Positions 4,252 to 50,900 of a stretch of DNA of 64,000 bases are shown in pieces. The stretch is from Nematostella vectensis. Lineage: Eukaryota. The position numbers were made by a program, and so were the translations under genes. Below the pieces are notes generated by a model. It had not been told where the DNA came from, ran no database searches, and worked only from the letters and a program-made list of their open reading frames with translations. The first letter of the stretch is position 1; every line of letters starts with the position of its first letter. The stretch spans positions 3,248,996 to 3,312,995 of the forward strand of contig NC_064037.1 of NCBI RefSeq assembly GCF_932526225.1, in the 5' to 3' direction.

Positions 4252-6554
<2,303 letters not shown>

Positions 6555-16924: not shown

Positions 16925-17140
16925 TTTCAAACAGAAAACATCATCATCATTATCATCATCACTTAACACAGCAACTTCACTTTTCACCCATACCACCATC
17001 ACATGGTCACACCATTATCATCATCATCATCATCATCATCGTCGTCGTCGTCGTCGTCATCATCATCATCATCACAAACACAGCAACATCGCCATTCACC
17101 CATACCACCATCACATGGTCACACCATTATCATAATCATT

Positions 17141-17171
<31 letters not shown>

Positions 17172-17760
17172 CTTAACACAGCAACTTTATTTTTTACCCA
17201 TATCACCATCACATGTTCACACCATTATCATCATCATTATCATCATCATCATCGTCGTCGTCGTCATCATCATCACAAACACAGCAACATCACCATTCAC
17301 CCATACCACCATCACATGGTCACACCATTATCATCATCATTATCATCATCATCACTTAACACAGCAACTTCACTTTTCACCCATACCACCATCACATGGT
17401 CACACCATTATCATCATCATTATCATCATCATCGTCGTCGTCGTCATCATCATCACAAACACAGCAACATCACCATTCACCCATACCACCATCACATGGT
17501 CACACCATTATCATCATCATCATCATCACTTAACACAGCAACTTCACTTTTCACCCATACCACCATCACATGGTCACACCATTATCATCATCATTATCAT
17601 CATCATCATCATCATCATCGTCGTCGTCGTCGTCATCATCATCATCATCATCACAAACACGGCAACATCACCATTCACCCATACCACCATCACAGTCACA
17701 CTATCATCATCATCAGCAGCAGCAGCAGCAACAACAACAAAATTATCATATAGCAAAAAT
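16925..17760. repeat. Compound trinucleotide minisatellite ((CAT)n/(CGT)n/(CAG)n embedded in an about 140-bp higher-order repeat x6)
   Basis: Unit cacttaacacagcaacttcacttttcacccataccaccatcacatggtcacaccattatcatcatcat...cgtcgtcgtcgtcatcatcatcacaaacacagcaacatcaccattcacc. It is the source of the His/Ile-rich spurious ORF 16759..17829. Confidence 0.9.
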
Positions 17761-18106
17761 AACACACTCTTCATTATCATTAGCATCATATCATCGGAAA
17801 TAGCCGGAAGAATTTATCGTATCTTATAGAAAAAACTGTATTTAATTAAATGTATTTTCTCTATTATAGAAGCTCCGCGATTGGATAACGGAGTTGATAA
17901 CATAAGTATTCCACACAGATTTGCGCAGCTAAGATCCTATCATTGTGGAAATTCTAGATCTGCTAACGAATGATGATAAAGTCATTCCACAGCCCCTAGT
18001 CAGGCGAAATCGTCGCAAACAACCACAGAGGCTCTCGCTCGCTTGCGATTCTAGCGATGAGGCGTAACTCGCTCAGTTTTATCCAATCCTTCTTCGAAAG
18101 CCACCA

Positions 18107-26900: not shown

Positions 26901-29900
26901 TTAAGATTGGTACATAATGGGTGGGGGACAAGAGCGGAGGGGGGGTGTCTTTTCTTTATGACGAAAAAGATGTACACTTTATAAAAACTTGACTGTTCTA
27001 GGGACACTAGTGAGTGATGAAATTGGTTTAATCTCATGCTAAATGCAATGCCACAAATCCTAAAAATCCTACTGATCTTGTGGGTTATCAACCACAATAA
27101 CCATAATCATCAATTTGTTATAGAGATTGCTTTGTTTATATTGTTTTGCATACTGTATGACAATCTTTTAAAATGATTTTGTTTATACATCTTTATTTGA
27201 AGGAAGGTGGTTTTTAGATTTTTATGTATGTGTAAGTGTGCACTTCAACTAAGGCTCAGTGCAATGAAAATTTGAGCTGTGCAAGTTAAATACCAAAACT
27301 GTCTGCACATGTGGCTAGTATAAATCATGAGCTTTGAGCCCTAGGTTGACATCGTTTAACCCTCCTGATGTGACGTGATACCTTGTATTTGCAGGCCAAC
27401 CCTCCTCAGTATGATAGAGCAGAGGACCTTGCCACCCTGCGCTACCTTAACGAGTCCAGCTGCCTTCACACCCTGCGTCAACGATATGGAAGTAACCTCA
27501 TCCACACTTACGCCGGACCCAACATGATTGTCATCAACCCCCAGCAGCAGCTTGCCATCTACACTGATAAGGTAAAGTAGCAACTTGCCATCTACACTGA
27601 TAAGGTAAAGTAGCAACTTGCCATCTACACTGATAAGGTAAAGTTGCAACTTGCCATCTACACTGATAAGGTAAAGTAGCAAACTTGCCATCTTCACTGA
27701 TAAGGTAAAGTAGCAAACTTGCCACCTACACTGATAAGGTAAAGTAGCAAACTTGCCATCAACCCTGATAAGGTAAAGTAGCAACTTGCCATCTACACTG
27801 ATAAGGTAAAGTAGCAAAATTGCCATCTACACTGATAAGGTAAAGTAGCAAACTTGCCATCTACACTAATAAGGTAAAGTAGCAAACTTGCCATCTACAC
27901 TGATAAGGTAAAGTAGCAACTTGCCATCTACACTGATATGGTGAAGTAGCAAACTTGCTATCTACACTTATAAGGTAAAGTAGCAACTTGCCATCTACAC
28001 TGATAATGTAAAGAAGCAAACTGAGCAGCTAGAAGCAATTCCAAGAAGTGCAGCAACTTATTCTATGCAAGATCAAATAAACTAGTTCCCTGGCTATCTT
28101 CTTCCCCAGGAACCAACATCTTACAATAATACCTCGAGTTTTAATAAGTAATAGTTTACCCCACAATGTGTTATTCTCCAAGCATCATGATCCCATTATT
28201 GCTAAGGCCTAATATAAACAGCGTTCTCTTCATGTGCTGTTCCAAGTTAAAGTATATGCAAATGAAGATAAAACAACCAACTTTGTTCATTTGCATGTAT
28301 TTGAATTTGGAAGAGTACGTGAAAAGAATGGTATCTAAACTATGCCTAAGTGTTGTGAAGCTTCCTTAAAACTGTGTTAAGCTCCCTTACAGGTTATCCA
28401 GATGCCCTGATGTCATAATGACATCATATTGTGTTGCTATGGCAACACAATATATCATTTTGTTCCTCTTTGTCAGATAATGATTCTTTGAAAATTTGGT
28501 CATAATTGCTCCAATGGTTCAAAAGTTATGGATGGGGGGGGGGGGGGGGGGGGGAGCGCAAGAGCCCCCCAGTCTGAATAGGGTTAAAACTAACTGTGTT
28601 AAGCTCCCTTACAGGTTATCCAGATGTTCCGTGGATGTAAGCAGGAGGATATGCCACCACACATCTTTGCCACAGCCCAGACGGCCTACCGCAACATGCT
28701 CGCAACCAGGATAGACCAGTCTGTGGTGCTGATGGGGTCTAGTGGATCTGGAAAGACGACTTGCGCAAAGCATATCCTCCACTACCTCTCATCGATAGCT
28801 GGCTCTTCTCACTCCCCTGTCACAGGTAACACTGCTATAATTTGGCACATGTCCCCGTTTATTCCTGCTTATAAATATATACCCTTGTATGCCACACCTC
28901 TCTCTGAGAGTCATGTTGACTTGAATCAATGATATACCACTCCTATCTCCTCCTTCAATGCCCACATTTTCTTATAAACAATTTCTGCTTTTGTCTTTCC
29001 AGATCAAAATTTCGAAGGGATCTTTGCACTGTTAGAGTCATTTGGAAATGTGCAGACCATTTTGAACAGGAATGCCACCAGATTTACACTTCTTGTGAGT
29101 CTAGACTTTGATTCAGCAGGAGGACTGACTTGCGGATCCCTGCAGGTAAGCTTGCTTGTCATGCCTGTGGAAAAAAGAATATGTGGAATTGTTGTGGTAG
29201 TGCTAGGAGAATGGTATTGACAGGTGGTGTGCCACACACCTGGTAACATAAGAGGTATAGCGGTGCTAGGTGTAAATAACTAGGACATGAGTTGGAGGGC
29301 TGGCTTGCACGACCTTTCAGATTAGTCATAGTGCAAAAGGAAATGTGATATGTAAATAACAAATAACATCCTTAAATAAAGGTGCAAGTTATGGTGTATA
29401 CAGATAGAGGCCTAGTACTTATGGACCCTTGGCTTATCTACTTGTTTTTCAGACATTTTTGTTGGAGAAATCACGGGTTGTTCGGCAAAAGGAAGGCGAA
29501 GGGACTTTCAACATATTCTATTATCTGTTGTCTGGCAGCGACCCAAAGCTAAGGTAACTAAATGCACAATAATGTACAGTAAGTACATTTGTGAGCCTTC
29601 TGCATGCCTTGTTGGAATCAGTAAATTTAGGATTTTACCCTTTTTTAAATTTGCATAGTCAGTTTTAGCTTGACATTTTGTGTGGGAAAAGTCTGGTAAT
29701 GGCCTTTAAAATTCTCTTTTTCCCCTCGAATTCTCTAAAACATAGATGCCAACCCCCGAAGTTCCAAATCAGATTTTTTGGAGAGTGGAGTTTTATAGCT
29801 TTTTTTATAGCTTCTATATTTGCAGAAACGCGACAACCAGTTTAAAGATTACCACGCATCTTTAAATTTTTCTGAAAATGCATCAATAGCTACGCATTGT

Positions 29901-32900: not shown

Positions 32901-35900
32901 ATCCATCTTCCCGGGCGCTAATGACAGCAGCTTCTTGGCCAGACTCTACGTACACCACTGCAGCGAAAGTGAGTACTTAAGAAACGGCTCTTTGAATCAG
33001 AGTGAGTACCCAAGAAACGGCACTTTGAATCAGAGTGAGTACCCAAGAAACGGCACTTTGAATCAGAGTTTTACTCAATTGTTTCCAACTTCCCCCCTTC
33101 ACCTCCCCCATACCTCCCAAAAGAGGCCAGATACTTTCATCCTCACAAGGAACCCTCAAAGAAATGACATCCATTGCAAAAATATCTAAATTGTTGTCGA
33201 GCGCCGGTAAAGTAAAGCATAGAAGTGAGCGCGGTGGAAGACTAAGGCTTATCGCAGCAATTGAGAAAATATGTTGTCTGCACATGGCTTTCGTTGGGAA
33301 TCTCGTAATAATACCCCCACACTTCTAAATCAAGATTTTTCTTATCCCGAGTTTAATTTGAAGGGCTGGACACTGAAATTTTAACGGAAACGTTCGAGAA
33401 AGGCCTCTCAACCCTCGGGGATGCTGTTGTGTAATCGAGAGGAGTCCTGGGTAAACCAGGGTATATAACCCTCGGGGTTACTGTTGTGTATTTGTAGAGG
33501 AATCCTGGGTGAAGCAGGGTCCGAAAAAAGACACGTTCTACGTAAATCATTGCCAAGGGACGCTTCCTGTGTTGTATAACGCGCAAGGCTGGCTCAAACT
33601 CGCGAGGGAGAACGCCACCACGAAACAGGCGCGAGGCATCCTCGCGGACTCCACCAAGTGAGTTTCTTTACATTTAGCTTAAGCACCGAAAAATGTAACA
33701 GAAGAGCTGATATATATATATGTTTTGAAAATACCAGGTGGCTTCGTCGGCTTGCTAACTTTTAATGTAAAAAATTGAAAAAAAAAAAAGATGTTTGACG
33801 CTTGCTAACTTCACAAATCAGGGATAAAACCGCTATATGGTCATTTTTTTCTACGATGTTACTAAGTAGAAACCTTGTCGATTAGTTATAGCCTTTCTGG
33901 TAATTTTTGAGCATTTTCTTGTTGGCCACGGTAGCCCGCGGTTTAACCGCCAACTTTTTTGAAAATGTTTTGTTTTCTTATCTTCGTAGGAACTCGGTGA
34001 ACAGTTTATTCTCTCAGCGCAACACCGCTGACAGTATCTCGAGGTCCCGCAGTTTCAAACGCGCCACCATGAGCCCTCCGACCGCCATTAAGAAAAACTC
34101 GCAGTGTCTGCAACTCATCTATCAAGTGGTGAGTTGTACACAACACAACCACGTACTAGCAACACGATCATGTACGGGGGACGACATCGCTCGATACAAC
34201 CACGCACTAGCAACACGATCATGTACGGGGGACCACATCGCTCGACACAACCACGTACTAGCAACACGATCATGTACGGGGGACCACATCGCTCGACACA
34301 ACCACGTACTAGCAACACGATCATGTACGGGGGACCACATCGCTCGACACAACCACGTACTAGCAACACGATCATGTACGGGGGACCACATCGCTCGACA
34401 CAACCACGTACTAGCAACACGATCATGTGCTGGGGACCACATCGCTCGACACAACCACGCACTAGCAGCACGATCATGTACGGGGGACCACATCGCTCGA
34501 CACAACCACGTACTAGCAACACGATCATGTACGGGGGACCACATCGCTCGACACAACCACGCACTAGCAACACGATCATGTACGGGGGACCACATCGCTC
34601 GACACAACCACGCACTAGCAACACGATCATGTACGGGGGACCACATCGCTCGACACAACCACGCACTAGCAACACGATCATGTACGGGGGACCACATCGC
34701 TCGACACAACCATGTACTAGCAACACGATCATGTACGGGGGACCACATCGCTCGACACAACCACGTACTAGCAACACGATCATGTACGGGGGACCACATC
34801 GCTCGACACAACCACGTACTAGCAACACGATCATGTACGGGTGACCACATCGCTCGACACAACCACGTACTAGCAACACGATCATGTACGGGTGACCACA
34901 TCGCTCGACACAACCACGTACTAGCAACACGATCATGTACGGGGGACGACATCGCTCGACACAACCACGTACTAGCTACACGATCATGTACGGGGGACCA
35001 CATCGCTCGACATAACCACGTACTAGCAACACGGTCATGTACGGGGGACCACATCGCTAGACACAACCACGTACTAGCAACACGATCATGTACGGGGGAC
35101 GACATCGCTCGACACAACCACGTACTAGCAACACGATCATGTACGGGGGACCACATCGCTCGACACAACCACGTACTAGCAACACGATCATGTACGGGTG
35201 ACCACATCGCTCGACAATCACGTACACACACAATCCCGTACACGCAACCCTATCACGCACACAGCCAACACGCAACAGCTATCTAAAGATTTGCCCCTTT
35301 CCCATAATCTATAAACATAAAGCTAATTAATCAAGTAGTGATTTGCACGCAACACCTTAAAAAGTGGGCTTAACCAATATGCGCAACACAACCACGTGCG
35401 CACAACCGAAACGCAACAGCCAACCCTCCCATGGTATTTGCTATTGGTGAACGGCAACACCACATTATATGGACAGGCAGTTTGGGGAACTCATTCTAAC
35501 GGCAACCATATGGCGTTTTTTAAACAATCCATCTAAAACCAAGCAAAACAGGGGCTCTCTCGCCCATGAAGTTGTTGTCTATTTGTTTTTGGTCACTATA
35601 TGCTTTTACTGTAATAGCTAAGGATCGAACAAACAAATAAATTGCAAATTGGCAAAGCAATTTTAGGAAATATAGAGAGAGAACTAAGAGATGTGACCAA
35701 GCTCGATTACGATACACGGCCATACGTATGAACACGACCATCAGCCGAACATACACTACACATGCGCAAATGAACCGAACATGCACTACACATGAGCAAA
35801 TGAACCGGACATACACCACACATGCGAAAATGAACCGAACATGCACCACACATGCGCAAATAAACCGAACATGCACCGCACATGCGCAAATGAACCGAAC

Positions 35901-38900
35901 ATGCACCACACATGCGCAAATGAACCGAACATGCACTACACATGCGCAAATGAACCGAACATACACTACACATGCGCAAATGAACCGAACATGCACTACA
36001 CATGAGCAAATGAACCGAACATACACTACACATGCGAAAATGAACCGAACATGCACTACACATGCGCAAATGAACCGAACATACACTACACATGCGCAAA
36101 TGAACCGAACATGCACTACACATGAGCAAATGAACCGAACATACACTACACATGCGAAAATGAACCGAACATGCACCACACATGCGCAAATGAACCGAAC
36201 ATACACTACACATGCGCAAATGAACCGAACATGCACTACACATGAGCAAATGAACCGAACATGCACCACACATGAGCAAATGAACCGAACATACACCACA
36301 CATGCGCAAATGAACCGAACATACACTACACATGAGCAAATGAACCGAACATGCACTACACATGAGCAAATGAACCGAACATACACTACACATGAGCAAA
36401 TGAACCGAACATGCGCTACACATGAGCAAATGAACCGGACATACACCACACATGCGAAAATGAACCGAACATGCACTACACATGAGCAAATGAACCGAAC
36501 ATGCACCGCACATGCGCAAATGAACCGAACATGCACCACACATGCGCAAATGAACCGAACATACACTACACATGCGCAAATGAACCGAACATGCACCACA
36601 CATGCGCAAATGAACCGAACATACACTACACATGCGCAAATGAACCGAACATACACTACACATGCGCAAATGAACCGAACGTGCACCACACATGCAAAAA
36701 TGAACCGAACGTGCACTACACATGCGAAAATAAACCGAACATGCACCACACATGAGCAAATGAACCGAACATACACTACACATGAGCAAATGAACCGAAC
36801 ATGCACTACACATGAGCAAATGAACCGAACATGCACTACACATGAGCAAATGAACCGAACATACACCACACATGCGCAAATGAACCGAACATGCACCACA
36901 CATGAGCAAATGAACCGAACATTACACATGAGCAAATGAACCGAACATGCACTACACATGTGCAAATGAACCGAACATACACTACACATGCGCAAATGAA
37001 CCGAACGTGCACCACACATGCAAAAATGAACCGAACGTGCACTACACATGCGAAAATGAACCGAACATGCACCACACATGAGCAAATGAACCGAACATAC
37101 ACTACACATGAGCAAATGAACCGAACATGCACTACACATGAGCAAATGAACCGAACATGCACTACACATGAGCAAATGAACCGAACATACACCACACATG
37201 CGCAAATGAACCGAACATGCACCACACATGAGCAAATGAACCGAACATTACACATGAGCAAATGAACCGAACATGCACTACACATGAGCAAATGAACCGA
37301 ACATGCACTACACATGCGCAAATGAACCGAACATACACTACACATGCGCAAATGAACCGAACGTGCACCACACATGCAAAAATGAACCGAATGTGCACTA
37401 CACATGCGAAAATGAACCGAACACACATCACACATGAGCAAATGAACCGAACATACACTACACATGAGCAAATGAACCGAACATGCACTACACATGAGCA
37501 AATGAACCGAACATGCACTACACATGAGCAAATGAACCGAACATACACCACACATGCGCAAATGAACCGAACATGCACCACACATGAGCAAATGAACCGA
37601 ACATTACACATGAGCAAATGAACCGAACATGCACTACACATGAGCAAATGAACCGAACATGCACTACACATGAGCAAATGAACCGACCATACACCACACA
37701 TGAGCAAATGAACCGAACATACACTACACATGCGCAAATGAACCGAACATGCACTAAACATGCGAAAATGAACCGAACATGCACTAAACATGCGAAAATG
37801 AACCGAACATGCACCACACATGCGCAAATGAACCGAACATGCACTACACATGCGCAAATGAACCGAACATGCACTAAACATGTGAAAATGAACCGAACAT
37901 GCACCACACATGCGCAAACGAACCGAACATACACTACACATGCGCAAATGAACCGAACATACACTACACATGTGCAAATGAACCGAACATGCACAACACA
38001 TGCGCAAATGAACCGAACATGCACTACACATGCGCAAATGAACCGAACATGCACTACACATGCGCAAATGAACCGAACATGCACTACACATAAGCAAATG
38101 AACCGAACATACACTACACATGCGCAAATGAACCAAACATACACCACACATGCAAAAATGAACCGAACATGCACTACACATCCGCAAATGAAGCGAACAT
38201 GCATTACACATGCGCAAATGAACCGAACATACACTACACATGCGAAAATGAACCGTCCGTGCACTACACATGCGAGAATTAACAGAACGTGCACCACACA
38301 TGCGCAAATGAACCGAACATGCACCACACATGCGAAAATGAACCGAACATGCACCACACATGCGCAAATGAACCGAACATACACCACACATGCGCAAATG
38401 AACCGAACATACACTACACATGCGCAAATGAACTGAACATGCACTAAACATGCGAAAATGAACCGAACATGCACCACACTTGCGCAAATGAACCGAACAT
38501 GCACTACACATGCGCAAATGAACCGAACATGCACTAAACATGTAAAAATGAACCGAACATGCACCACACATGCGCAAATGAACCGAACATACACTACACA
38601 TGCGCAAATAAACCGAACATACACTACACATGTGCAAATGAACCGAACATGCACTACACATGCGCAAATGAACCGAACATGCACTACACATGCGCAAATA
38701 AACCGAACATGCACTACACATGCGCAAATGAACCGAACATGCACTACACATGCGCAAATGAACCGAACATACACTACACATGCGCAAATGAACCCAACAT
38801 GCACTACACATGGGCAAATGAACCGAACGTACACCACACATTCGCAAATGAACCGAACATACACTACACATGCGCAAATGAACCGAACATACACTACACA

Positions 38901-41900
38901 TGGGCAAATGAACCGAACGTACACTACACATGCGCAAATGAACCGAACATACACTACACATGCGAAAATGAACTGAACATACACTACACATGCGAAAATG
39001 AACCGAACGTACACTACACATGCGCAAATGAACCAAACATACACTACACATGCGAAAATGAACTGAACATACACTACACATGCGCAAATGAACCGAACGT
39101 ACACTACACATGGGAAAATGAACCAAACATGCACTACACCTGCGCAAATGAACCGAACATACACTACACATGCGAAAATAAAACGACGTGCACCACACAT
39201 GCGAAAATGAAACGACGTGCACCACACATGAGCAAATGAACCGAACATGCACTAAACATGCGAAAATGAGCCGAACATGCACTAAACATGCGAAAATGAA
39301 CCGAACGTGCACCACACATGCAAAAATGAACCGAACGTGCACTACACATGCGAAAATGAACCGAACATACACTACACATGCGCAAATGAACCGAACATCC
39401 ACTACACATGCGAAAATGAACCGAACGTGCACCACACATGCAAAAATGAACCGAACATACACCACACATGAGCAAATGAACCGAACATGCACTACACATG
39501 CGAAAATGAACCGAACATGCACTACACATGCGCAAATGAACCGAACATACACCACACATGCGCAAATGAACCGAACATGCACTACACATACGCAAATGAA
39601 CCGAACATGCATTACACATGCGCAAATGAACCGAACATACACTACACATGCGAAAATGAACCGTGCGTGCACTACACATGCGAGAATTAACCGAACGTGC
39701 ACCACACATGCGCAAATGAACCGAACATGCACTACACATGCGAAAAATGAATCTTTTGTTTGCTATTTTAGGACACTCTCCTCGACGCTATCCGTAAAAC
39801 CAAAGTGAACTTTGTGCGCACAATACTGCCTGTATCAACCGCTGGCCAGACTGACATCACGGATCCCATCACTAAGGCCAAGGTCTCCAAGGAGATGGCT
39901 ACCCTTGACGTGCCCATGGTGCGGCAACAACTGCGGTCAGCGGAGATGCTCGATGCTGTCAGGATACACCGTCAAGGTAAGTATTGTGTGGGGGTGGGGT
40001 GGGGGGAGGGGGGGAGGAATGACACAGGTGTGCTTCTTATGGTGTATGTTGCGAGGCAGGGCCTGATTGATGGTAAGCTGGGGGCTTGATACCCTTGGTA
40101 CCAGAGCCTCCAGACTTCTCGCACCCAGTGGCGCTCTCGCATTTTGGCTAAGCGTCACTGGACGAGAGAAGTATGGAGGCTGTGGTACCCAGGGTAGGGA
40201 ATTGATTGGTAGATGGAGGTTGATTTGTAGGTATAACCTGTGTCATGGTTGGATGAAAATGTCAAAAATATAAAAAAAACCTGGGTGATAGATATGAATC
40301 CTTCTCCTTTGTTCTAGTAGAACAACTGTAAGGTTTTATTTCGATGTCTGAAACCCCTAACTGTTTAAAACGCATGATATGACATGAAAATACTATAAAG
40401 CTAATTGCGTTTATGCTGTTATAAATGACTAAAAATCACGCTTATGTTTGACAATGGGAGATGGATTGTAGCGCGGCGCTAAGAACTGACACCCAGTCCT
40501 TCCCGGTCTTAAAACAACTCGTAGCAAAGACAAGGTGAATGCAAGGTCACGCTAGTGCGAGCTAGCATTTCAGCACCTGAGCACCAACATAGATATTACA
40601 AACATGGCATGACCATCTAGCCAAGGCTTGTCGAGCATGGGGGCTCCTCGGTATGACTGCGATCAGCTATCATGTGCAATCGAACCTCGCAAGCCGTAGA
40701 CGCAGCGTCAAAGGCTTTCCAGGTACCCTCGCCCTGCCGTACTTATAAACTTCCTAGAATTATGTCTAAGAGCAATGACCATGAATAGCGTTCTAAGAAG
40801 ACTAAATAGCAGATCTCACATCAACGTAGAGATGTTTCTATTCTCAAGTGTTTGTAAACATAATAGTATTTCTCCAATTAACAAGTGGTTCTACGTGGCC
40901 GGTATTACTGTTACCAAGGTGTTATCAAAGGGTCATGGGAATGTATTTGTCTCACGCAAACTGTACGATTTGAGTTAGACATTCGTCTTTTGTAGATCCT
41001 ACCAAACCATTCTAGCTTTGAGTTAGTTTAGTTTTTATGCATAAAATCAAAGCAAACTAAAACAACGATTGTAATAATCTCTTGGAACAATAGGTATTGT
41101 TCGAAGTAGTAAATGTCGAAGTAGTTTGTTAAGCACTTTAAGATTGGTACTTATCTCTGATTGCCGTCTTTATTGCATGGTGAAACTACTGTATAGTACC
41201 TTAGAGACCGACCAAGCTACAAATATTTCCATTTATTTATCCATAAAAAACACCAAAGATTCCCAAATATCTGTCCGGCCCAAGAAAAAGTTTTCCGCGC
41301 GAAATTTTGTTATGCAAATACAACGTGCGCAAACAACGTGTGTTGTCTTATAATAAAGTTGTGTATCAATTTATATATAGAATTTACTTAGCTGACGATA
41401 TGTGAAAAATTGAAAGTGGCGTTTTGTTTATTATATTTACTGGTACGTAACTAAATGTCATCTTTTGCAGGTGTTATTTTAACTATTAGACTGTTTAGAA
41501 TAGTCCGTACCCCTAAAAGTACCCGTTACTCTCAAATAAAGTAAAACCGCTAACTTTTATGACAAGAAACACTACCTACATCTAGGAGCCTTGTAGGTAA
41601 ACACTCCTTTGTCTCAACACGAAGCACCGCTGATTCCATCGTCTGCAGTCGCAGTCCATTGACTTCAACAGGCTTCATTATTCAGGCGTAAAACTTTGTA
41701 GCCGAGCGCATCAGACTTGTTTGTTTACCTTGCGTATAGCACTGACTGTTTACTCTGGCCTGGGCCCAGAAGTGGTGTGATTGAATCGCCGAGCAAGACG
41801 CAGTGTCCGTTGAAGCCTCGCTACTGTTTCCTTTTTTTGTTGGGGATTTCTACAGTGCGTATCTCAACCCACAGGTGAACCTGGACATGTAGGGAATTTG

Positions 41901-44900
41901 GATTGTGCCTTCAGCTTAAAGTTTTATTCGCAATCTTCGACTCATCGTGGTACAAGCCGACAACAGAGGGCAAAGTTTCCAGAACTAGAGTTCGCTGCAC
42001 GTGGAAACAGTCAGTGGTTATTTGAAGGCTTATGAATGGGGCATGGGTGTACGTAGCGGTGATCTGACAACTACTGAAGATATGAGTTGTAACAATCAGG
42101 GCCTTTTTGGTTGGCGCCATGAAACCCGTGTTTTACTTATTGTGCAAGCGACACAGCTCAAAACATTCCAAGTACCAGGTTCGTGTTCGCGTTAGGGAAG
42201 TTTGAAGTCACAGCAATGGGAAAAAATTATACCGAGCTCAAATTTACTTTGTTTAGGAACTTTTCCTTGCGCGATTAAGAAATACTTACCTAATTGAATT
42301 TGATTAAATTCAACACAATGTCACTCAAAATTATTAAAACGGTTCATTTAAATGTGTCAACCTCTTTTATTCGGAACTGCTAAAGGAATTTTAATGCCAA
42401 GACAAACACTGAAGTCAAAAACAATTTCTTGTGTGTTTTTATCCTACTAAACAGAGGTGTGTAATTCTCGAGAAATACTTGTTATCCTGCAGGTCTTGTT
42501 TTCTTTTCTTAGATTTACGGTCGAGTTGGGTATTTATGGAAGCTAAGTAGGTTCGCAATATTAACCATTTGAGGTATAGATATATCATCAAATGCATGAA
42601 ATTCAAGGAGTATTTGCTAAAGTTCAAGGTCAATTTTAAAGTAATATTTCTACTGAACGCCCGCAAATTGCCACTTGGTTGGTTTTAAAAGGTTTTTAAT
42701 ATTCATTGCTGAACAATAACTGATATTGTACTGTGCTTGACAAGTGCACCAAGAGTTAATGAGGACAACGAGAACAAAAAACTCTCTCTTTGAACAGTTA
42801 ATATCCTTGGTAATATTCATTCTTTATATATATACGAATATATACGAATAAACGAATGTTAATTGATCCATAGCATGACTCGAATGACTCGGTGCTTTTC
42901 GTGTGCGTGACATACCGCCATTCTCACCGATAACTAGACGGTCAGATAACGCGCGCGGTGATGGAATTGTGTATTTTAAGTTATCTTTACATTCGCGCAT
43001 TTTAAATGTATACAAAAAAGCCTAGAAATTCCAACACTCCTGTGGTGAGTAATCATGTGGCGGACTCCCTCTCAGGGTTGGGTTTGCCCTGTCTTATTAT
43101 CTCAGTATGTAAGCTCAGTAAGGATGCAGCAAGGGACGGGAATATTTTTATGGTCTTTTTGGAGAGGGGTTTGTATAGGAAATTGCTTTATGGGGGGGGG
43201 GGGGGAGGATTTGATGAAAAATATCCTTTCCTAATATGTCTTCCTCCCACAGGCTTTCCGGAGCACATGCCGTTTGGGGAGTTTCGGCGAAGGTTCGACG
43301 TGTTGGCGCCTGTGCAGTACAGGACCAGCGCAGGACCCGTGCTGGACGAGAAAAAGGTATCTCCTAGAAAACCTTCAAACTTGATACAGTCGAGAAAAAG
43401 GTATTTCCTAGAAATCCTTCCAAACATTTTACGGTCGTGTTATCCTTTATACAGGAACCAGGTCTGGATAAACTCTAATTTTGCTTAGTTAAACGAAGTA
43501 ATTTTATCGAAACTCAGTATTAACCGTTCAGTGGTAAATACTGCGATTTAGCCATTTATGTAATGTGCTATAAGTCTCTTAGCATTTAGTGGTATTTAAT
43601 TTGCTATTAGACCATTAGCATTCAGTGGTATTATATTCATGTTATGTGTCTCCAGGGCGTGGAGCTGTTGCTGAGCCATCTGGAGTTGGATCAGAGGAGC
43701 TACCGACTTGGACTTAGTCAGGTATTTTAGACGGCTTTTCTTCTGAGAAGATTTTGTTGCTGTGTTTTTTAGCGCTCTTTTGGTATGACTGTTAGCGAAA
43801 AGTAAACAAATAAGGATCCCGTTAAACCGAATCTATGAAGAAAATAGCAATGGTACAATTAGCAAGAAGAGAGAGTTGATTTGGAAAAGGAATCAACTGT
43901 TCAGCAGTCTCTATGTATTCATGAGTTACTCCCTTCGTTCAACCTATGTCAAGCGGCTGTTTATTATTTTCTTGGATTTACTCCTAAGTTTGTATATTTA
44001 TGGCGTGGATCTTGTTTTGGGCTTGTTCTCTGGCTCTAATCATGCGACTTTTATTATTGTCTTTGAATTAATTGATACGTTTGATTCCTGCATTGCGTAG
44101 ATCTTCTTCCGCGCGGGTTCGCTGGCACAGCTCGAGGATGCTCGCGACCAGAAGACGACAGGTACCATCGTCGAGTTGCAAGCTTACTGCCGCGGCTTCT
44201 TGGCCAGAAAACGACTCAAGAAGTTACAGGTAATGTGCAGCTTCCCCCCCATCCTCGATAGTCTCCTACGCAGACGCTCTGCCACGCGAAGTTTTGGGAG
44301 TCTGTGAACTGTACGATTATTCGGAGACGTCGGTGGCAACGCGAACAGAGCGAGGGAGATGGGCTGGGGGAGGGGGATGTCGGGGTAGAAATTCTTCCCT
44401 GTTTCAATCACAAATGTTGTTTATAGTTTGCTAAGAAAGCTAAAGCGCTATTATGTTCTGATTAAAATCTTTTCTCTTTTGTTTCCAGGTTCAGAACAAG
44501 GCCATGATATGTATCCAGAGAAATATTCGTAAGTTCATGGCTGTCAGGAGCTGGTCCTGGTGGAAGCTGTACACAAAGGTTAGTCACACAACCCTTCCCT
44601 CGGACTGATCTCGCTAGGGCCGACCCCAACCCGAGAGCATCTCGTACTGATATCGTTATCGCTGACCCTATCCCGAAAACATCTCGTACAATCTCGTTAT
44701 CGCCGACCCTATCCCGAAAAAAACTCGTATAGATCTCGTTATCGCCGACTCCATCCCGAAAACATCTCGTACTGATCTCGTTATCGCCGACCCCACCCTG
44801 AAAACATTTCGTACAGATCTCGTTATGGCCGACCCCATCCCGAAAACGTCTCGTACAGCCCTCGTTATCGCCGACCCCATCCCGAAAACATCTCGAGGCA

Positions 44901-47900
44901 ACCCCGATCATAGTGTTCGTTCGAATTGCTTGCAGGTTTTGCCTCTCTTGAATGTCCACCGCACCGAGGAAGAGCTCAAGTCTAAGTCAGTAAGTATCGT
45001 ATGACTAGAAAGACGGCAGATACAAATATCTAGTTGGCTTACGTAGGCGTGGTTGAATGGTGGGGAAAAGAAGTTTCAAAGAAATTTCTAACATTAGCCC
45101 TTCACTGGAACAGAGCCGACGAAGGGCTAACGCTCTAAGTGTCTGCGAAACTGCTCTTTTTACAGGAGGCGTTAAACGTACCACTTCAGCCTTGTGTTGA
45201 GCTCTTTCTCTTAGATTGGCTATGTTGATGATAATGAAATAAATCTCAAAACATTTTCACACCAGGCTATTTTTCTCAATAGTTTTCAATTTTCTCGATA
45301 GTTTTCAATTTTCGTGTTAACATCGTTCGGCTATTTTGCTCGATAGTTTTCAATTTTCGTGTTAACAGCGTTCGGCTATTTTGCTCGATAGTTTTCAATT
45401 TTCGTGTTAACAGCGTTCGGCTATTTTGCTCGATAGTTTTCAATTTTCGTGTTAACAGCGTTCGGCTATTTTGCTCGATAGTTTTCAATTTTCGTGTTAA
45501 CAGCGTTCGGCTATTTTGCTCGTTAGTTTTCAATTTTCGTGTTTACAGCGTTCGGCTATTTTGCTCGATAGTTTTCAATTTTCGTGTTAACAGCGTTTGG
45601 CTATTTTGCTCGATAGTTTCCAATTTTCGTGTTAACAGCGTTTGGCTATTTTGCTCGATAGTTTTCAATTTTCGTGTTAACAGCGTTTGGCTATTTTGCT
45701 CGATAGTTTTCAATTTTCGTGTTGACAGCGTTTGGCTATTTTGCTCGATAGTTTTCAATTTTCGTGTTAACAGCGTTCGGCTATTTTGCTCGATAATTTT
45801 CAATTTTCGTGTTAACAGCGTTCGGCTATATTGCTCGATAGTTTTCAATTTTCGTGTTAACAGCGTTCGGCTATTTTGCTCGATAGTTTTCAATTTTCGT
45901 GTTAACAGCGTTCGGCTATATTGCTCGATAGTTTTCAATTTTCGTGTTAACAGCGTTCGGCTATTTTGCTCGATAGTTTTCAATTTTCGTGTTAACAGCG
46001 TTCGGCACTTGATCGTGTCGTTTAAGCACTGTGAAAACATTCCCACCATAGCGCTATTTATCCATTATTTCCACCATAGCGCTATTTATCCATTATTTCC
46101 ACCATAGCGCTATTTATCCATTATTCCCACCATAGCGCTATTTATCCATTATTTCCACCATAGCGCTATTTATCCATTATTTCCACCATAGCGCTATTTA
46201 TCCATTATTTCCACCATAGCGCTATTTATCCATTATTTCCACCATAGCGCTATTTATCCATTATTTCACGTATGCATTGTTGTGTATCTTTGCGCGCGTA
46301 TACTTTAGTTAATTACAATTCACCCTCCCTCCCTTAGGGCGAAGTTGACATCCTGAAGGCGAAGGTCGCGAGGCTGGAAAACGAGAACAAAGAGCTGAAC
46401 GACGAAAACATGAAGCTCGAACAAAAGGTATGGTTTCCATGGAAACTGTTGCTAAGGTAGACAAAATTTGCCTGAAACTCAAATAGTTGCCGGATATCAT
46501 TTTGAAACCAGCTTATACAATGCTATGAAACACAAAGGTGTTTCGCGTTCCGATTTCATTGTTTCCCAATTTGAGTTTGACTCCTACCGAATAGAGCGTC
46601 GACCGTAGGCGAGGTGAAGTCAATTTACTGAGTGACTCCTTTTATCCCTCACTAGTCAAAACAGCGATTGTAAATATGATCAACCAATCAAAAACGTCAC
46701 ACGACTTGGGTACACGGCCAATCAGAGTTTGCGTATTACGGGCTTCCGCTTCCAGTATATGTATATAAATAACACTTCTCAAACAAAACCCGACGCAGAA
46801 TAAAATTTACCCCGCTTTATCTCGAATTTGGCGTTCATAGTAAGGCGACTTTTGAATGGTTTCCCCGGCTTCTGGGCGGTGAGTTTAGAAAATATTACAA
46901 CTAGGTGCAATACAAGGATGAAATCTGACAATGTCAATATGTGAAGACTCTTTATTCTTGGCGTCAATTGCGCTTGTTGGGCCAAATAGTGTGATTTCGT
47001 TGGTATTCTATTATTAATTGGGTTCTTAATTTTGTGGTGGGCTGTTGAGTAAATTTGTTAAAATATATATGTTTTGTAGCGAGGTCTGGAGTAAAGTATT
47101 TGTTTAAGTTGACATTCGTAGCAAAGTTAAGGAAAGTTGCGTTTTTATGTTTTACGAAATCTTTTTCTTTTGACACAGGAACCACAATCATCTGTGCCCC
47201 AAAAAAGAGGGAGTGATCTCTTTTCTGTACATAATTTCTCTTTAGAAATATGGGTTCTCCTTTTCAGCGCAGAAAATATTTTTTTCCAGACGCTTTATTC
47301 CTAAACGTATTTGAATAATGATGTTGGCTAGATTGTCTCTTTTCATGTGATCATTTCACAAACACGTGGCCGCTGCACCTGTGCCTCGCCTGAGTCGTTG
47401 CCTTTTAACAGCGTTTGGTCAGCTGCCATTATAAAAGCCACTCAGTCATATGAAGTATCCAATTGCATCGAGCGATCTGTGAGTTCCGGTGCATCATTAA
47501 TTTTTTTTTTTACCCATAATACCTCCATGATTTTTTGTATCGCTCGCAAATTCTTTTTTCTCTGTTAGAAATACACTTTTTTCCTTGTTAGAGAAACAAA
47601 GTTGTTTTAGAAAAACAAAGTTATTTAGCTTTTTTAGAGCATAGAACAGCACGCTCTCGTAATGAGAATATTAAAATCTTGAGAATCTTGTCCGGTAGGT
47701 GTCCGAATTATCGGTCCAGCTGTCCGAGGATCGCGCCGCCGCCAACCATGCGAGCCAGATGCTGGAACAAGAGACCATGGAGAGGATGAGACTTGAGGTG
47801 CAGCTACAAGAGATACAGGTAAAACCCGATTACCCAGTCAAACTGGTTATGAAATACATATTCCTTATAAGCACCTGTAAGACCTGAGGTGCGGCGTCAA

Positions 47901-50900
47901 GAAATACAGGTAAAACCCGATTACCCAGTCAAACTGGTTATGAAATACATACCCCTTAAAAGCACCCATTACACTCAAAAAGAGAGCTCTCCCATATGTC
48001 AATGTTTTCGTCACTTTTATATGTTATCCTTACTTTGCACTTTTCCCCGCCCTGAGTTAATTTTCTCGAGAAGTCGGAAAAAAACTAAACAGTTATAAGG
48101 TCAGATCTCTTCTCTTTGCTATTACGATACGTTTTGCTGTTACGAAACTATTATGATGCGTTATGCTGTTGTGAGAGTCTCTAGATCAGAAGAACAGATC
48201 CCTCTCCATGTTGCACTGATCCTTTACTATACACATCTATTGCAGGAGTCTCTTGACGAGATCAAGAAGAAGAAAGAACAGCTGGAGGTCGAGCTGCTTG
48301 AGGCCAAAGCGCTCGTGTCCACTTCTGCGCGGCGGGGAGAAGCACGACTACTTCAGGCTGAGAAGAGTGAGAGGTTCGCGGGAGAAGGTGCCTCTGACGA
48401 TGAGGACTTTGAAGAGGAAGGTAAAGGAACGCAGTACTAGGGCATGTACTACATCTTACAATAGGACGACATCCCCTGCGGGCCTCAAGAAGAAGTCTTC
48501 ACGTCTTGCTCAAAAGAAGGAGGATATGAAACTACTGCTGGAAGAGTTATTTACTAAAAATTACCCCAATCCAACGATACATCCCAATATTGTCATATAA
48601 AACAAATTCATCTACCGACTAGGCATTGCGTTCGGCAAGTTAAGAGGGTGTGTTGTTTAAGGTTAATTTTTTTATTGCCTCAAAATTATATCGTAAAACT
48701 GTATCATATTATATGATATTTACAAAGCCCCATGCCATGCGTCATTTTTCTTTAGATTGTGTTACATCCTGTGTTTTGCATAGAGCACTCTTACTGAATT
48801 CCATGAATGAGTGAGGCGTGACAAGGTGTTTGTATTGCGTTACAGAGGAGTACTACCGTGAACGTTACCTCCAGGCGTCACGCGAGCATGAGCAACTGCG
48901 CAAAAAGCTCCAGAGTCAAGCTGAGAAGGAGATGGAGGAGGTCCTTAACCAGAAGAGAATCGTAGAAAGAAAGGTGCGCACAAATCTTAAAATCAATATT
49001 ATTTATTGTATATTGTTGTCGGAATGCAGAATAGCGTTCTTAGTGTTTTGCTAATATTGTATCAGTCTGTTTGTAACCCTTTCATTCCCAAACTTCTTTA
49101 GTTGGCAGAGGAGCAGTCAGAGAATGACGAGCTCCATCGCCAGATGGCGGGCCTCAAGAAGAAGTCCTCACGTCTTGCACAGGAGAAGGAGGATATGAAA
49201 CTACTGCTGGAAGAGGAACAAACCAGAAACACAGACCTCGAGAAGAAACAGAGAAAGTAAGTTAACCCTAACAAAATCTAGTAGGATCTCCTGAGAAGCA
49301 GACGTTTCTATGTTGAGCTACTCCAGAAATCACTGTTTAGGGCACACATTTTTGTTTCTGACCTATAAAACAAACATGTGCTCTAACTATAAATAAGATT
49401 CGTTAATGTTTCTAAGCTCAGCCACCCACGAAAATGTTGTTCGGGACCCAAGAAATGTTTCTGTCCTGTTTCAGAGCCATGGGGCATTCTTGCTTCAACT
49501 TATTCGTCCTCTGACAAAACACTTATAAACGAAATAAACAGATGTAAAGAAAACAAACATCTCAACCTTTTATTTTATTTTAAGGTTTGACATTGAATCG
49601 AATCACATGAAGCAGGAAGTCGAACATGAGCGAATGCTGAAGGATAAGATCAATCGCGAGAAAAAGAAATTCCAGGCAGACAAATACCGTCTTGAGCAGG
49701 AGCTGGATCAAGTCCAGGAAGACCTGGACCGCGCTACCAAGGACAAGCACAAGCTGGAGCAAGACCTGCTGGAGTTTTCCAAGGAACCGGGCGGCGAGGT
49801 TAACGCTGATGTAGGTCTTACCTCCTTCTGTAATTTATATGCGCGCTAGGTTGCACAAAAGGCTGTGACACGGGTGGCCTGCACTGTCCCCTTACGCCTC
49901 CAGATGTTCAAATACTTGCTGAAGTTGAAGTCTTGTGTCTTAAAGCTGCTTTACACTAATCCCAAGCAAGGAATGTAGAAGGAAAATTAGTCGGGGGTTT
50001 GATAAACTCCTGGCAGTTAACACCTTTTATGTCACTGCATATTTACAATATATACATGGGGTACGGTAATTTAAGTTCGTTGTGTTGTGACTTCAGCCTT
50101 GTTGCCTAGGCATATTATTAGAGCTTGCCCACCTTAATCTTGTTCATTATCTTGTCGCAGGCCGTTGCTCTGAAGCGCCAGATCCGCGAGCTCGAACAGA
50201 AGGTACAAGACCAGGAGGAGGAGTTGGACGAACAGGCAGGGCAGATCCAGATACTGGAACAGGTACGTGTTAGACCCAGTAGTATAGAAATAAGGATAGG
50301 TGTGTGTTAGACCCAGTAGTATAGAAATAAGGATAGGTGTGTGTTAGACCCAGTAGTATAGAAATAAGGATAGGTGTGTGTTAGACCCAGTAGTATAGAA
50401 ATAAGGATAGGTGTGTGTTAGACCCAGAAGGGTAGACCCAGAAACAAGAATAGGTGTGTTATACCCAGAAGGGTAGATACGGAAACAAGAATAGGTGTGT
50501 TATACCCAGAAGGGTAGATACAGAAACAAGAATAGGTGTGTTATACCCAAAAGGGTAGACCCAGAAACAAGAATAGGTGTGTTATACCCAGAAGGGTAGA
50601 CCCAGAAACAAGAATAGGTGTGTTATACCCAGAAGGGTAGATACAGAAACAAGAATATGTACTAAGTACGTTTGACCTTTTCTCGCTTTTGTTTTAAACC
50701 TTTTCCAAAACTATCAATCCATAACGATATTGATGAGTAATACAGAAGTTGAGTTGTTTTGTTCACTTGGTGATACCAAACTTTGTACCCTTGAATGGCT
50801 GCGTATTGACTAACACACCGCTTTCCCTTGAATGGCTGGCTCTAATGCCTTGACTTACCCGTTTTCAGACGAAGTTGCGCCTGGAGATGGCTGGCGAGCG

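What the first reader, a model, noticed from the sequence alone, without database searches (positions are those of the whole stretch)
34129..39771. A single 5.6-kb MYO18 intron is about 90% satellite DNA: a 51-bp x21 array at the donor and a 30-bp x134 array reaching to 25 bp of the acceptor
Intron 14 lies between motor-domain exons ...CLQLIYQV and [11 protein letters not shown].... It contains two unrelated high-copy arrays with unit lengths that are multiples of 3 and stop-free frames. These give the longest ORFs in the window (up to 856 aa), all spurious. The 30-bp array shows ordered variant positions suggestive of higher-order structure. Arrays this large directly flanking both splice sites of a conserved motor-domain intron are unusual. 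They are likely hypervariable in length and may affect splicing kinetics.
Basis: seen in the sequence. Interest (0 to 1): 0.6.

Follow-up and report, generated by a model that had tools for sequence, protein, structure and literature searches.

The report
Minisatellite-filled intron in a myosin-18 gene
One intron of a coral-like animal's myosin-18 gene has been inflated about ten-fold (to 5.6 kb) by two unrelated short tandem-repeat arrays; this is real but an ordinary kind of non-coding repeat expansion, one of many in the same gene.

Summary
A GT-AG intron (34129-39771, 5643 bp) separates two myosin motor exons. It holds a 51-bp x21 array (34143-35216) starting 14 nt after the donor, and a 30-bp x134 array (35745-39751) ending 20 nt before the acceptor. 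Together they make up 90% of the intron.

The gene is a class XVIII myosin (KE-rich N-terminus, PDZ, motor, IQ, coiled coil). The neighbouring BCS1 gene points to an anthozoan-like cnidarian.

The same intron is 120-1124 bp and free of minisatellites in seven orthologous loci. The arrays are therefore lineage-specific expansions of a roughly 0.1-0.6 kb intron. The two units are unrelated. The 30-bp array contains a 326-bp (11-unit) higher-order block present three times (99% identity). The long ORFs are by-products: four of six frames are stop-free in each unit.

The arrays carry almost no splice-like signals, which probably explains why they are tolerated. The arrangement is not exceptional here: 20% of the window is tandem repeat, and several other introns of this gene hold arrays touching splice sites. 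Human analogues exist (ABCA7, F7, CACNA1C VNTRs).

Verdict: a real, ordinary intronic minisatellite. One side lead deserves follow-up: repeats in this gene start at 5' splice sites far more often than chance predicts.

The parts
33990..34128 (+). Motor-domain exon ('exon 14'), ending ...[14 protein letters not shown]. Its last codon ends at the exon boundary.
   Evidence: Translation. tblastn finds the orthologous exon in all seven loci L001-L007.
34129..34142 (+). 5' splice site plus 14 nt of unique intron (GTGAGTTGTACACA).
   Evidence: Sequence. It is the only GTRAG in the whole intron.
34143..35216 (+). 51-bp minisatellite, 21 copies, consensus ACACAACCACGTACTAGCAACACGATCATGTACGGGGGACCACATCGCTCG.
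   Evidence: TRF: 96% matches. 21 hits with up to 3 mismatches. Longest perfect tract 223 bp.
35217..35285 (+). Decayed copies of the 51-bp unit at the 3' edge of that array.
   Evidence: Alignment score 42 against a shuffled null of 20.7 +/- 4.5; 0 of 300 shuffles reach it. CACGCAACAGC-type motifs recur further on to about 35421.
35286..35744 (+). Non-repetitive spacer, probably a remnant of the pre-expansion intron.
   Evidence: Unique in the window apart from one 14-nt match to the start of the 51-bp array. No Rfam family and no tRNA.
35745..39751 (+). 30-bp minisatellite, 134 units, consensus CCGAACATGCACTACACATGCGCAAATGAA. The sense strand is 72% A+C.
   Evidence: TRF: 90% matches. Unit parse: 128 units of 30 bp, four of 26 bp and two of 29 bp; 58 unit variants; variable positions 7, 9, 13, 21 and 23. 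Base composition.
36615..37622 (+). Higher-order repeat inside the 30-bp array. Three blocks of 11, 11 and 12 units (326, 326 and 356 bp), each ending in a diagnostic 26-bp unit.
   Evidence: Blocks 1 and 2 match at 323/326 = 99.1%. Block 3 is the same block plus one extra unit. Base identity at lag 326 is 0.93 against 0.87 at lag 30.
39752..39771 (+). Polypyrimidine tract and 3' splice site (TCTTTTGTTTGCTATTTTAG).
   Evidence: Sequence. The nearest upstream AG is 87 nt away, so the branch point probably lies in the last repeat units (inference).
39772..39978 (+). Motor-domain exon ('exon 15'), [15 protein letters not shown]...DAVRIHRQG.
   Evidence: Translation. 68-70% identical to the orthologous exon in the loci.

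Best explanation
These are two independent, locally generated minisatellites. They expanded inside what was a short intron (about 0.1-0.6 kb) of a cnidarian MYO18 gene, and they now ride along as tolerated, non-coding passengers.

Inferred steps:
- Each array began as a local tandem duplication.
- Each grew by replication slippage and unequal exchange.
- The 30-bp array grew most recently by duplication of 11-unit blocks.

Shown: the arrays leave untouched the 14 nt at the donor and the 20-nt polypyrimidine-AG at the acceptor. They are also nearly free of splice-like signals. The pre-mRNA therefore gains about 5 kb of A/C-rich, unstructured spacer with essentially no decoy splice sites, and splicing still joins exon 14 to exon 15.

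Inferred: the last 30-bp units probably supply the branch point.

No dedicated function is required to explain the arrays. The main consequence is a ten-fold longer intron and, possibly, allele length variation.
For: - The arrays are real and confined to this intron.
- The orthologous intron is 120, 120, 121, 136, 410, 980 and 1124 bp in seven loci and holds no minisatellite. Neither unit occurs in those loci.
- The intron minus its arrays is 562 bp. Array-free introns of this gene are 153-559 bp for most, with a few of 1.3-3.3 kb.
- Decayed 51-bp copies flank that array, as expected for growth in place.
- The block structure points to unequal exchange: 326-bp blocks at 99.1% identity against about 87-90% between adjacent units.
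- The arrays contain 0 GTRAG and 0 polypyrimidine-AG motifs. GT density in the 30-bp array is 0.65%, against 6.9% in a control intron.
- The sense RNA is unstructured (z = +0.3 and -0.9). No Rfam family is hit.
- The ORFs are by-products.
- The same process is visible throughout the gene and window: 20.5% of the window is tandem repeat, and introns 3, 19 and 20 are 43-85% array.
- Annotated MYO18 proteins are contiguous across this junction.
Against: - There are no reads, no population data and no RNA data, so length polymorphism, correct assembly and actual splicing are all unverified.
- The donor-adjacent position of the 51-bp array fits a statistically strong gene-wide bias: 7 of 15 repeats start within 20 nt of a donor, against 1.13 expected. 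A purely random, neutral placement model does not explain that.
- ACAC/CACA motifs are extremely dense: 440 in this intron against 17 in a 3.3-kb control intron. This could in principle bind CA-rich-element splicing factors.
Confidence: 0.75

Rival explanations
1. The arrays act in cis on splicing. The A/C-rich repeats next to both splice sites would bind CA-rich-element RNA-binding proteins (hnRNP L-like). Alternatively they would slow intron removal in proportion to length, tuning MYO18 output or exon choice, as reported for the human ABCA7 intron 18 VNTR.
For: - The arrays lie 14 nt from the donor and 20 nt from the acceptor.
- There are 440 ACAC/CACA motifs in the intron against 17 in a control intron.
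- The sense RNA is single-stranded and so accessible.
- ABCA7 VNTR length correlates with skipping of the downstream exon (PMC5954066).
- Many human tandem repeats are associated with splicing variation (PMC10078293, abstract).
Against: - The arrays are absent from all seven orthologous introns, so any such role would be lineage-specific.
- Other arrays in the same gene have quite different compositions: A+C ranges from 0.35 to 0.81.
- Exons 14 and 15 encode contiguous, conserved motor sequence, so skipping either should be deleterious.
- There is no RNA evidence either way.
Confidence: 0.12
2. The arrays exist, but their assembled length or internal order is an assembly artefact (collapse or over-expansion).
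For: Tandem arrays are a classic source of assembly error, and no read data are available. The near-identical 326-bp blocks are the type of structure that can be mis-copied.
Against: - The array is highly heterogeneous: 58 unit variants among 134 units, with diagnostic 26-bp and 29-bp units.
- Perfect tracts are short at 96 and 223 bp, which makes it easy to span and order with long reads.
- Block 3 differs from blocks 1 and 2 by a whole extra unit plus substitutions, so it is not a verbatim copy.
- Many other arrays in the window are assembled through, with unique flanks.
Confidence: 0.08
3. The arrays belong to a dispersed, transposon-borne satellite family (for example internal repeats of a Helitron-like or MITE-like element) that inserted into the intron, rather than arising locally.
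For: Invertebrate genomes do carry such families. One orthologous locus (L006) has a 106-bp repeat at several separate places, which looks dispersed. The 459-bp spacer has no recognisable origin.
Against: - Neither unit occurs elsewhere in the 64-kb window, in the seven loci, or in the metagenome and viral collections.
- The spacer is unique and has no terminal inverted repeats.
- Decayed copies at the edge of the 51-bp array indicate growth in place.
- Other arrays in this gene are demonstrably local, being built from the gene's own exon ends and splice sites.
Confidence: 0.05
4. The repeats are coding: an alternative or retained exon encoding 17-aa or 10-aa repeats.
For: The reading frame of exon 14 stays open through the entire 51-bp array as far as 35286 (noted). 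Both unit lengths are multiples of three.
Against: - Four of six frames are open in each unit on both strands, so this is a property of composition rather than of coding.
- Units of 26 and 29 bp shift the frame in the 30-bp array.
- Variable positions show no third-codon-position bias.
- No Pfam domain scores above cut-off.
- Orthologous proteins have no insertion at this junction.
- Canonical strong splice sites are present.
Confidence: 0.01

Closest known systems
Human ABCA7 intron 18 VNTR (25-bp unit, 0.3-10.7 kb; PMC5954066)
   Same: A minisatellite of kilobase size, inside an intron of a conserved gene, lying directly against the upstream exon's donor site. It has a multi-kb length range and slightly varying units.
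   Different: - The ABCA7 unit includes the donor GT itself, whereas the 51-bp array here starts 14 nt downstream.
- ABCA7 length variation and its link to exon 19 skipping are measured; nothing of that kind is known here.
- Here a second, unrelated array also reaches the acceptor.
Human CACNA1C 'TRACT' 30-bp intronic VNTR (3-30+ kb; PMC13131567, bioRxiv 10.1101/311795)
   Same: A 30-bp unit in a kilobase-scale, lineage-specific intronic array made of many unit variants arranged in ordered patterns. The array is interrupted rather than perfect.
   Different: TRACT lies deep inside a very large intron, far from splice sites. Its sequence is unrelated. Its allele structure and disease associations are documented, whereas this array is known from one assembly only.
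Human F7 intron 7 37-bp minisatellite spanning the exon 7 donor (PMC1557585)
   Same: It shows that arrays at 5' splice sites are tolerated because the most upstream donor is selected. It is the direct analogue of the donor-spanning arrays seen elsewhere in this gene (27551-28022, 32968-33069, 47789-47966).
   Different: The arrays of the finding itself do not duplicate a splice site. F7 has only a handful of copies.
Higher-order repeats of satellite DNA (alpha-satellite type)
   Same: Multi-unit blocks (11 units, 326 bp) are much more similar to each other (99%) than adjacent units are (about 87-90%).
   Different: There are only three block copies inside a 4-kb euchromatic, intronic array. 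It is not a megabase centromeric array and is not homogenised across the whole array.

Membership tests
Minisatellite / VNTR | Unit of about 10-100 bp repeated head to tail | tested here: met
   51-bp and 30-bp units in tandem (96% and 90% matches; TRF reports no indels, though a unit-by-unit parse finds six off-length units in the 30-bp array)
Minisatellite / VNTR | Array length of about 0.5-30 kb at a defined euchromatic locus | tested here: met
   1074 bp and 4007 bp inside a gene intron with unique flanks
Minisatellite / VNTR | Copy number varies between individuals | not testable with these tools
   Only one assembly is available. The window's own ORFs are not in the public collections searched.
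Minisatellite / VNTR | Locus-specific rather than dispersed | tested here: inconclusive
   Absent from the rest of the window, from seven orthologous loci and from the metagenome and viral collections. The source genome itself could not be searched.
Classical satellite DNA | Very long arrays (tens of kb to Mb), usually heterochromatic and at many loci | tested here: not met
   The arrays are 1.1 and 4.0 kb, bounded by unique sequence and exons.
Higher-order repeat organisation | Multi-unit blocks more similar to each other than neighbouring units are | tested here: met
   Met for three blocks only. 326-bp blocks are 99.1% identical, and identity at lag 326 is 0.93 against 0.87 at lag 30.
U2-type GT-AG spliceosomal intron | GT...AG boundaries with a consensus donor and a polypyrimidine tract | tested here: met
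   GTGAGT donor and TCTTTTGTTTGCTATTTTAG acceptor
U2-type GT-AG spliceosomal intron | Removal restores a contiguous conserved protein, and the position is shared with orthologues | tested here: met
   The junction QV|D is contiguous in annotated MYO18 proteins. An intron sits at the same position in L001-L007.
U2-type GT-AG spliceosomal intron | Spliced junction observed in RNA | not testable with these tools
   No transcript data for this organism
Class XVIII myosin gene | Myosin motor domain | tested here: met
   Pfam Myosin_head E = 6.7e-110, covering profile positions 2-679 of 679
Class XVIII myosin gene | N-terminal KE-rich extension and PDZ domain upstream of the motor | tested here: met
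   [11 protein letters not shown]...[12 protein letters not shown] at the N-terminus. PDZ E = 2.7e-9, above cut-off. The SH3_Myosin-XVIIIa match is weak and below cut-off.
Class XVIII myosin gene | IQ motif and coiled-coil tail; closest named relatives are class XVIII | tested here: met
   IQ E = 2.6e-6. Tail exons align to MYO18 tails. The top named hits are almost all 'unconventional myosin-XVIIIa' or 'myosin-18' (one is annotated non-muscle myosin heavy chain, and MYO18B appears lower down).
Transposon-borne satellite | Arrays flanked by transposon sequence or terminal repeats, with copies at other loci | tested here: inconclusive
   No inverted terminal repeats, a unique spacer and no other copies in the data held.
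Splicing-regulatory intronic VNTR (ABCA7 type) | Array abuts a splice site | tested here: met
   14 nt from the donor and 20 nt from the acceptor
Splicing-regulatory intronic VNTR (ABCA7 type) | Array length changes splicing or expression | not testable with these tools
   Needs RNA-seq from individuals with different alleles, or minigenes

The most novel reading that the evidence does not exclude
In this genome, or at least in this gene, tandem duplications may arise preferentially at 5' splice sites. The intron-14 51-bp array, 14 nt from its donor, would be one product of that bias.

Of 15 tandem repeats in MYO18 introns, 5 start within 5 nt of a donor (0.32 expected) and 7 within 20 nt (1.13 expected). 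Several are built from the exon end plus the donor itself, so up to 12 exact donor copies sit in tandem. A bias like this would point to a boundary-linked mutational mechanism (for example transcription- or splicing-coupled breakage, or slippage at exon ends). It would also provide a natural series of competing-splice-site arrays.
Probability: 0.25. Interest if true: 0.6.

Novelty: new member of a known kind. Interest (0 to 1): 0.3.

Why it matters
On its own this is a catalogue entry: a large, lineage-specific intronic minisatellite pair. It has three practical uses.

- It shows how a short, conserved intron can grow ten-fold without disturbing its splice signals.
- It warns annotators that the longest ORFs in such regions are artefacts.
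- It offers a candidate length-polymorphic marker.

More interesting is the context. A gene in which a fifth of the sequence is minisatellite, and in which repeats cluster at donor sites, could be a natural system for studying how splice-site choice copes with tandem decoys. It could also help explain how such repeats originate, if the bias holds genome-wide.

Tried and rejected
- **Finding the source genome or other copies of the repeats.** Exact look-ups of the 856-aa array ORF and of ten window ORFs found nothing. The question of dispersed versus locus-specific therefore stays open for the genome as a whole.
- **A known RNA gene in the intron.** There are no Rfam matches at gathering threshold and no tRNAs in the whole window. 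Sense-strand folds are no better than shuffles. The antisense 30-mer gives z = -2.4, which was not pursued because it is the expected self-pairing of a repeat.
- **Relationship between the two units.** None was found beyond their shared composition.
- **Transposon origin.** The spacer is unique and has no terminal inverted repeats.
- **Coding repeats.** Rejected.
- **A misreading of my own.** I first took the 33-bp x3 repeat at 32968-33069 for an in-frame coding repeat. Comparison with orthologues showed that the exon ends before it and that it duplicates the intron-12 donor.
- **Strand-composition bias across arrays.** No consistent A+C bias was found; values range from 0.35 to 0.81.
- **Literature on intronic minisatellites in coral genomes.** Nothing specific turned up.
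Full report
**What is in the sequence**

Tandem Repeats Finder reports two arrays between 34129 and 39771. One has a 51-bp unit x21.1 at 34143-35216 (96% matches). The other has a 30-bp unit x134.0 at 35745-39751 (90% matches). Searching each consensus with up to three mismatches gives 21 and 113 hits, against none in shuffled sequence. Every hit lies in this interval and on the + strand.

The interval is bounded by CAAGTG|GTGAGT at 34128/34129 and TATTTTAG|GACACT at 39771/39772. The flanking reading frames give ...[14 protein letters not shown] and [15 protein letters not shown]...DAVRIHRQG. The arrays make up 5081 of 5643 bp, or 90%. The 51-bp array starts 14 nt into the intron. The 30-bp array ends 20 nt before the intron's last base, not 25.

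**The gene and the organism**

I mapped conserved exons by tblastn of + strand open segments against orthologous loci and against annotated proteins. This gives a collinear series of about 34 coding exons from an ATG at 19522 to about 56568.

- The first exon encodes a KE-rich N-terminus ([11 protein letters not shown]...) and a PDZ domain (E = 2.7e-9).
- The concatenated exons give a full-length Myosin_head match (369 bits) and an IQ motif, with a weak SH3_Myosin-XVIIIa match.
- Downstream exons align to coiled-coil tails.
- The best named homologues are almost all 'unconventional myosin-XVIIIa' or 'myosin-18', at 37-45% identity across bilaterians, a hydrozoan and a placozoan; a few lower hits carry other labels.
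- An orthologous locus carries PDZ, SH3_Myosin-XVIIIa and Myosin_head in the same order.

The MYO18 assignment is sound. Counting from the ATG exon, the exon ending at 34128 is the fourteenth, so 'intron 14' is reasonable though provisional.

The neighbouring gene at 4252-4917 is BCS1 (Pfam E = 8.8e-45). Its best named relative is from the coral Acropora cervicornis at 76%, with other animals at 64% or less. The nearest MYO18 exon matches come from coral-reef metagenome and holobiont assemblies. The window is therefore most likely from an anthozoan-like cnidarian. The species itself is not in the collections searched.

**It is an intron, and it used to be short**

Annotated MYO18 proteins are contiguous across this point: octopus ...CLQVKLQV|DSIIETLRRTK, amphioxus ...CMQVKYQV|DGIMDTIKRTR. 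Seven orthologous loci have an intron at exactly this position. Its lengths are 121, 120, 120, 136, 410, 1124 and 980 bp. None contains a minisatellite, and the only repeat is a 7-bp microsatellite in L006. Neither unit occurs in those loci.

In the window, most array-free introns of the gene are 153-559 bp, with a few of 1.3-3.3 kb. Intron 14 minus its arrays is 562 bp. The arrays are thus lineage-specific additions that lengthened the intron about ten-fold.

**Anatomy of the arrays**

The two units are not detectably related: local alignment score 13 against 12.6 +/- 2.4 for shuffles. Both are A/C-rich on the sense strand, with A+C of 0.64 and 0.72.

The 51-bp array is followed by decayed copies of its own unit at 35217-35285 (score 42 against 20.7 +/- 4.5). 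A weaker vestige lies near 35372-35410. This is the signature of an array that grew in place and is older at its edge. The remaining spacer is unique.

A unit-by-unit parse of the 30-bp array gives the following:

- 128 units of 30 bp, four of 26 bp and two of 29 bp
- 58 distinct unit variants
- five main variable positions (7, 9, 13, 21, 23) with no three-base periodicity

Three identical 26-bp units (CCGAACATTACACATGAGCAAATGAA) at 36915, 37241 and 37597 mark the ends of three blocks of 326, 326 and 356 bp. Blocks 1 and 2 are 323/326 identical (99.1%). Block 3 is the same block with one extra unit. Base identity at lag 326 is 0.93, against 0.87 at lag 30. Shorter recurring unit strings occur elsewhere in the array.

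The longest perfectly periodic tracts are only 96 bp (30-mer) and 223 bp (51-mer).

**The ORFs**

The window's longest ORFs are in the arrays: 856, 576 and 571 aa. Each unit is stop-free in four of six frames, on both strands. The ORF products are decapeptide or 17-residue repeats with no Pfam match above cut-off. The off-length units break the frames. They are by-products of 3n periodicity and composition. The exon-14 frame does stay open through the whole 51-bp array to 35286, so a retained intron would give a truncated protein, not an alternative domain.

**Why it is tolerated, and what it might do**

Inside the arrays there is no GTRAG and no polypyrimidine-AG motif. The intron's single GTRAG is the real donor. 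Of its two polypyrimidine-AG matches, neither is in an array: one is in the spacer and the other is evidently the real acceptor. GT occurs at 0.65% of positions in the 30-bp array, against 6.9% in the neighbouring 3.3-kb intron. The nearest AG upstream of the acceptor is 87 nt away. The branch point probably lies in the last repeat units (for example the AUGAA 21 nt upstream), but this is inference.

The sense RNA folds no better than shuffles, and no Rfam family or tRNA is present. The simplest reading is a neutral passenger: about 5 kb of splice-inert spacer.

A regulatory reading is not excluded. ACAC/CACA motifs number 440 in this intron against 17 in the control intron. In humans, an intronic VNTR abutting a donor (ABCA7 intron 18, 25-bp unit, 0.3-10.7 kb) correlates with skipping of the next exon (PMC5954066). 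Nothing here tests that.

The claim of hypervariability is also untested. The closest human analogue by unit size, the 30-bp CACNA1C TRACT array (3-30+ kb), is reported to be relatively length-stable once interrupted by variants (PMC13131567). Both arrays here are interrupted.

**Is it unusual?**

Not in this sequence. Tandem repeats of period 10 or more cover 20.5% of the window, against 0-0.7% in four orthologous loci and 11-31% in two others. One of those two (L004) carries a 68-bp array of at least 90 copies inside its MYO18 gene.

In this gene, intron 3 is 43% array, intron 19 is 85% and intron 20 is 70%. The intron-19 array starts 17 nt from its donor and ends 37 nt from its acceptor. 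Intron 14 is simply the largest example.

**A pattern seen while checking context**

Several repeats in this gene are built from the splice sites themselves.

- The 34-bp x14 array at 27551-28022 consists of the last 21 nt of the exon plus the donor, with 12 exact AAG|GTAAAG copies.
- The 33-bp x3 repeat at 32968-33069 triplicates the intron-12 donor, AGTGAGTAC.
- A 91-bp duplication at 47789-47966 copies the exon end plus the donor.
- Arrays at 50267 and 52875 start 4 and 2 nt into their introns.
- The 34-bp x29 array at 54263-55247 spans an acceptor and the first 13 nt of the exon.

I placed each of the 15 intronic repeats at random in its array-free intron. Five start within 5 nt of a donor (0.32 expected; none of 200,000 simulations reached five). 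Seven start within 20 nt (1.13 expected; P = 2.5e-5). The acceptor side shows no excess: 2 observed against 1.13 expected, P = 0.31.

The thresholds were chosen after seeing the data, some exon ends are approximate, and this is one gene. Still, the 51-bp array's position next to the donor fits a real local bias, whereas the 30-bp array's position next to the acceptor is compatible with chance. Individual cases of donor-spanning minisatellites are known, and in those the first donor is used: human F7 intron 7 (PMC1557585) and ABCA7. A concentration like this in one gene I have not seen described, but I did not search for it exhaustively.

**Verdict**

The finding is accurate and its structural interpretation is largely right. 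The feature is a pair of ordinary, lineage-specific intronic minisatellites in a minisatellite-rich cnidarian-type genome: a new member of a well-known kind. Its functional claims are untested, and its 'unusual' label does not survive comparison with the rest of the gene. Interest is low to moderate. The donor-proximal bias is the only lead that might repay genome-wide follow-up.

Noticed in passing
window 27551-28022: A 34-bp x14 array whose unit is the last 21 nt of the motor exon (…LAIYTDK) plus the 5' splice site. There are 12 exact AAG|GTAAAG copies spaced 33/34 nt apart. Use of any downstream copy would add an in-frame TAG. It resembles the human F7 intron 7 and ABCA7 intron 18 VNTRs.
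   Followed up: partly
window 32968-33069: A 33-bp x3.1 repeat that triplicates the donor of intron 12 (AGTGAGTAC at 32968, 33001 and 33034). I first misread it as an in-frame coding repeat. Orthologues end the exon at HHCNES, just before it.
   Followed up: partly
window 47789-47966: A 91-bp tandem duplication covering the last ~30 nt of a coiled-coil exon, its donor (ACAG|GTAAAAC) and ~60 nt of intron. A 46-nt stretch is exactly duplicated 91 nt apart.
   Followed up: partly
window 50267-50657 and 52875-53542: Two arrays start 4 nt and 2 nt into their introns: 37/41-bp units carrying AG|GTGTGT, and a 30-bp C-rich unit x22.
   Followed up: partly
window 54263-55247: A 34-bp x29 array that spans a 3' splice site and the first 13 nt of the next exon. 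There are about 25 copies of a polypyrimidine-YAG plus exon-start motif upstream of the real acceptor at 55234/55235.
   Followed up: partly
window 20930-56310 (all MYO18 introns): Of 15 intronic tandem repeats, 5 start within 5 nt of a donor (0.32 expected) and 7 within 20 nt (1.13 expected, P = 2.5e-5 by simulation). There is no excess at acceptors. The thresholds are post hoc and this is one gene only.
   Followed up: partly
window 44599-44895; 45289-46267: A 42-bp x7 array fills 85% of the 351-bp intron 19. Arrays of 45 bp x16 and 28 bp x8 fill 70% of intron 20.
   Followed up: yes
whole window; loci L001-L007: Tandem repeats of period 10 or more cover 20.5% of the window. In the orthologous loci the figures are 0-0.7% in four, 11% in L006 and 31% in L004.
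   Followed up: yes
L004 14194-20306: Another species' MYO18 orthologue carries a 68-bp array of at least 90 copies (97% matches) that runs off the end of the fetched locus. It starts ~130 nt after a likely donor.
   Followed up: partly
L006 1898-2375, 4474-4780, 10880-11210, 16802-17389: A 106-bp repeat occurs as short arrays at several separate places in one orthologous locus. It looks like a dispersed (transposon-type) tandem-repeat family, unlike the locus-specific arrays of the window.
   Followed up: no
window 4252-4917: A single open exon encoding the N-terminal domain of the mitochondrial chaperone BCS1 (Pfam E = 8.8e-45). Its best named relative is from Acropora cervicornis (76%), which is the basis for calling the source an anthozoan-like cnidarian.
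   Followed up: partly
window 17013-17715: A complex CAT/CAC-rich repeat (periods 3, 74-80 and 174-180) lies about 1.8 kb upstream of the MYO18 start codon. It creates a 356-aa ORF (16759-17829) and has a strong C-over-G skew.
   Followed up: no
window 33907-35286: The exon-14 reading frame remains open through the entire 51-bp array. Intron retention would therefore append ~385 residues of 17-aa repeats before a stop.
   Followed up: yes
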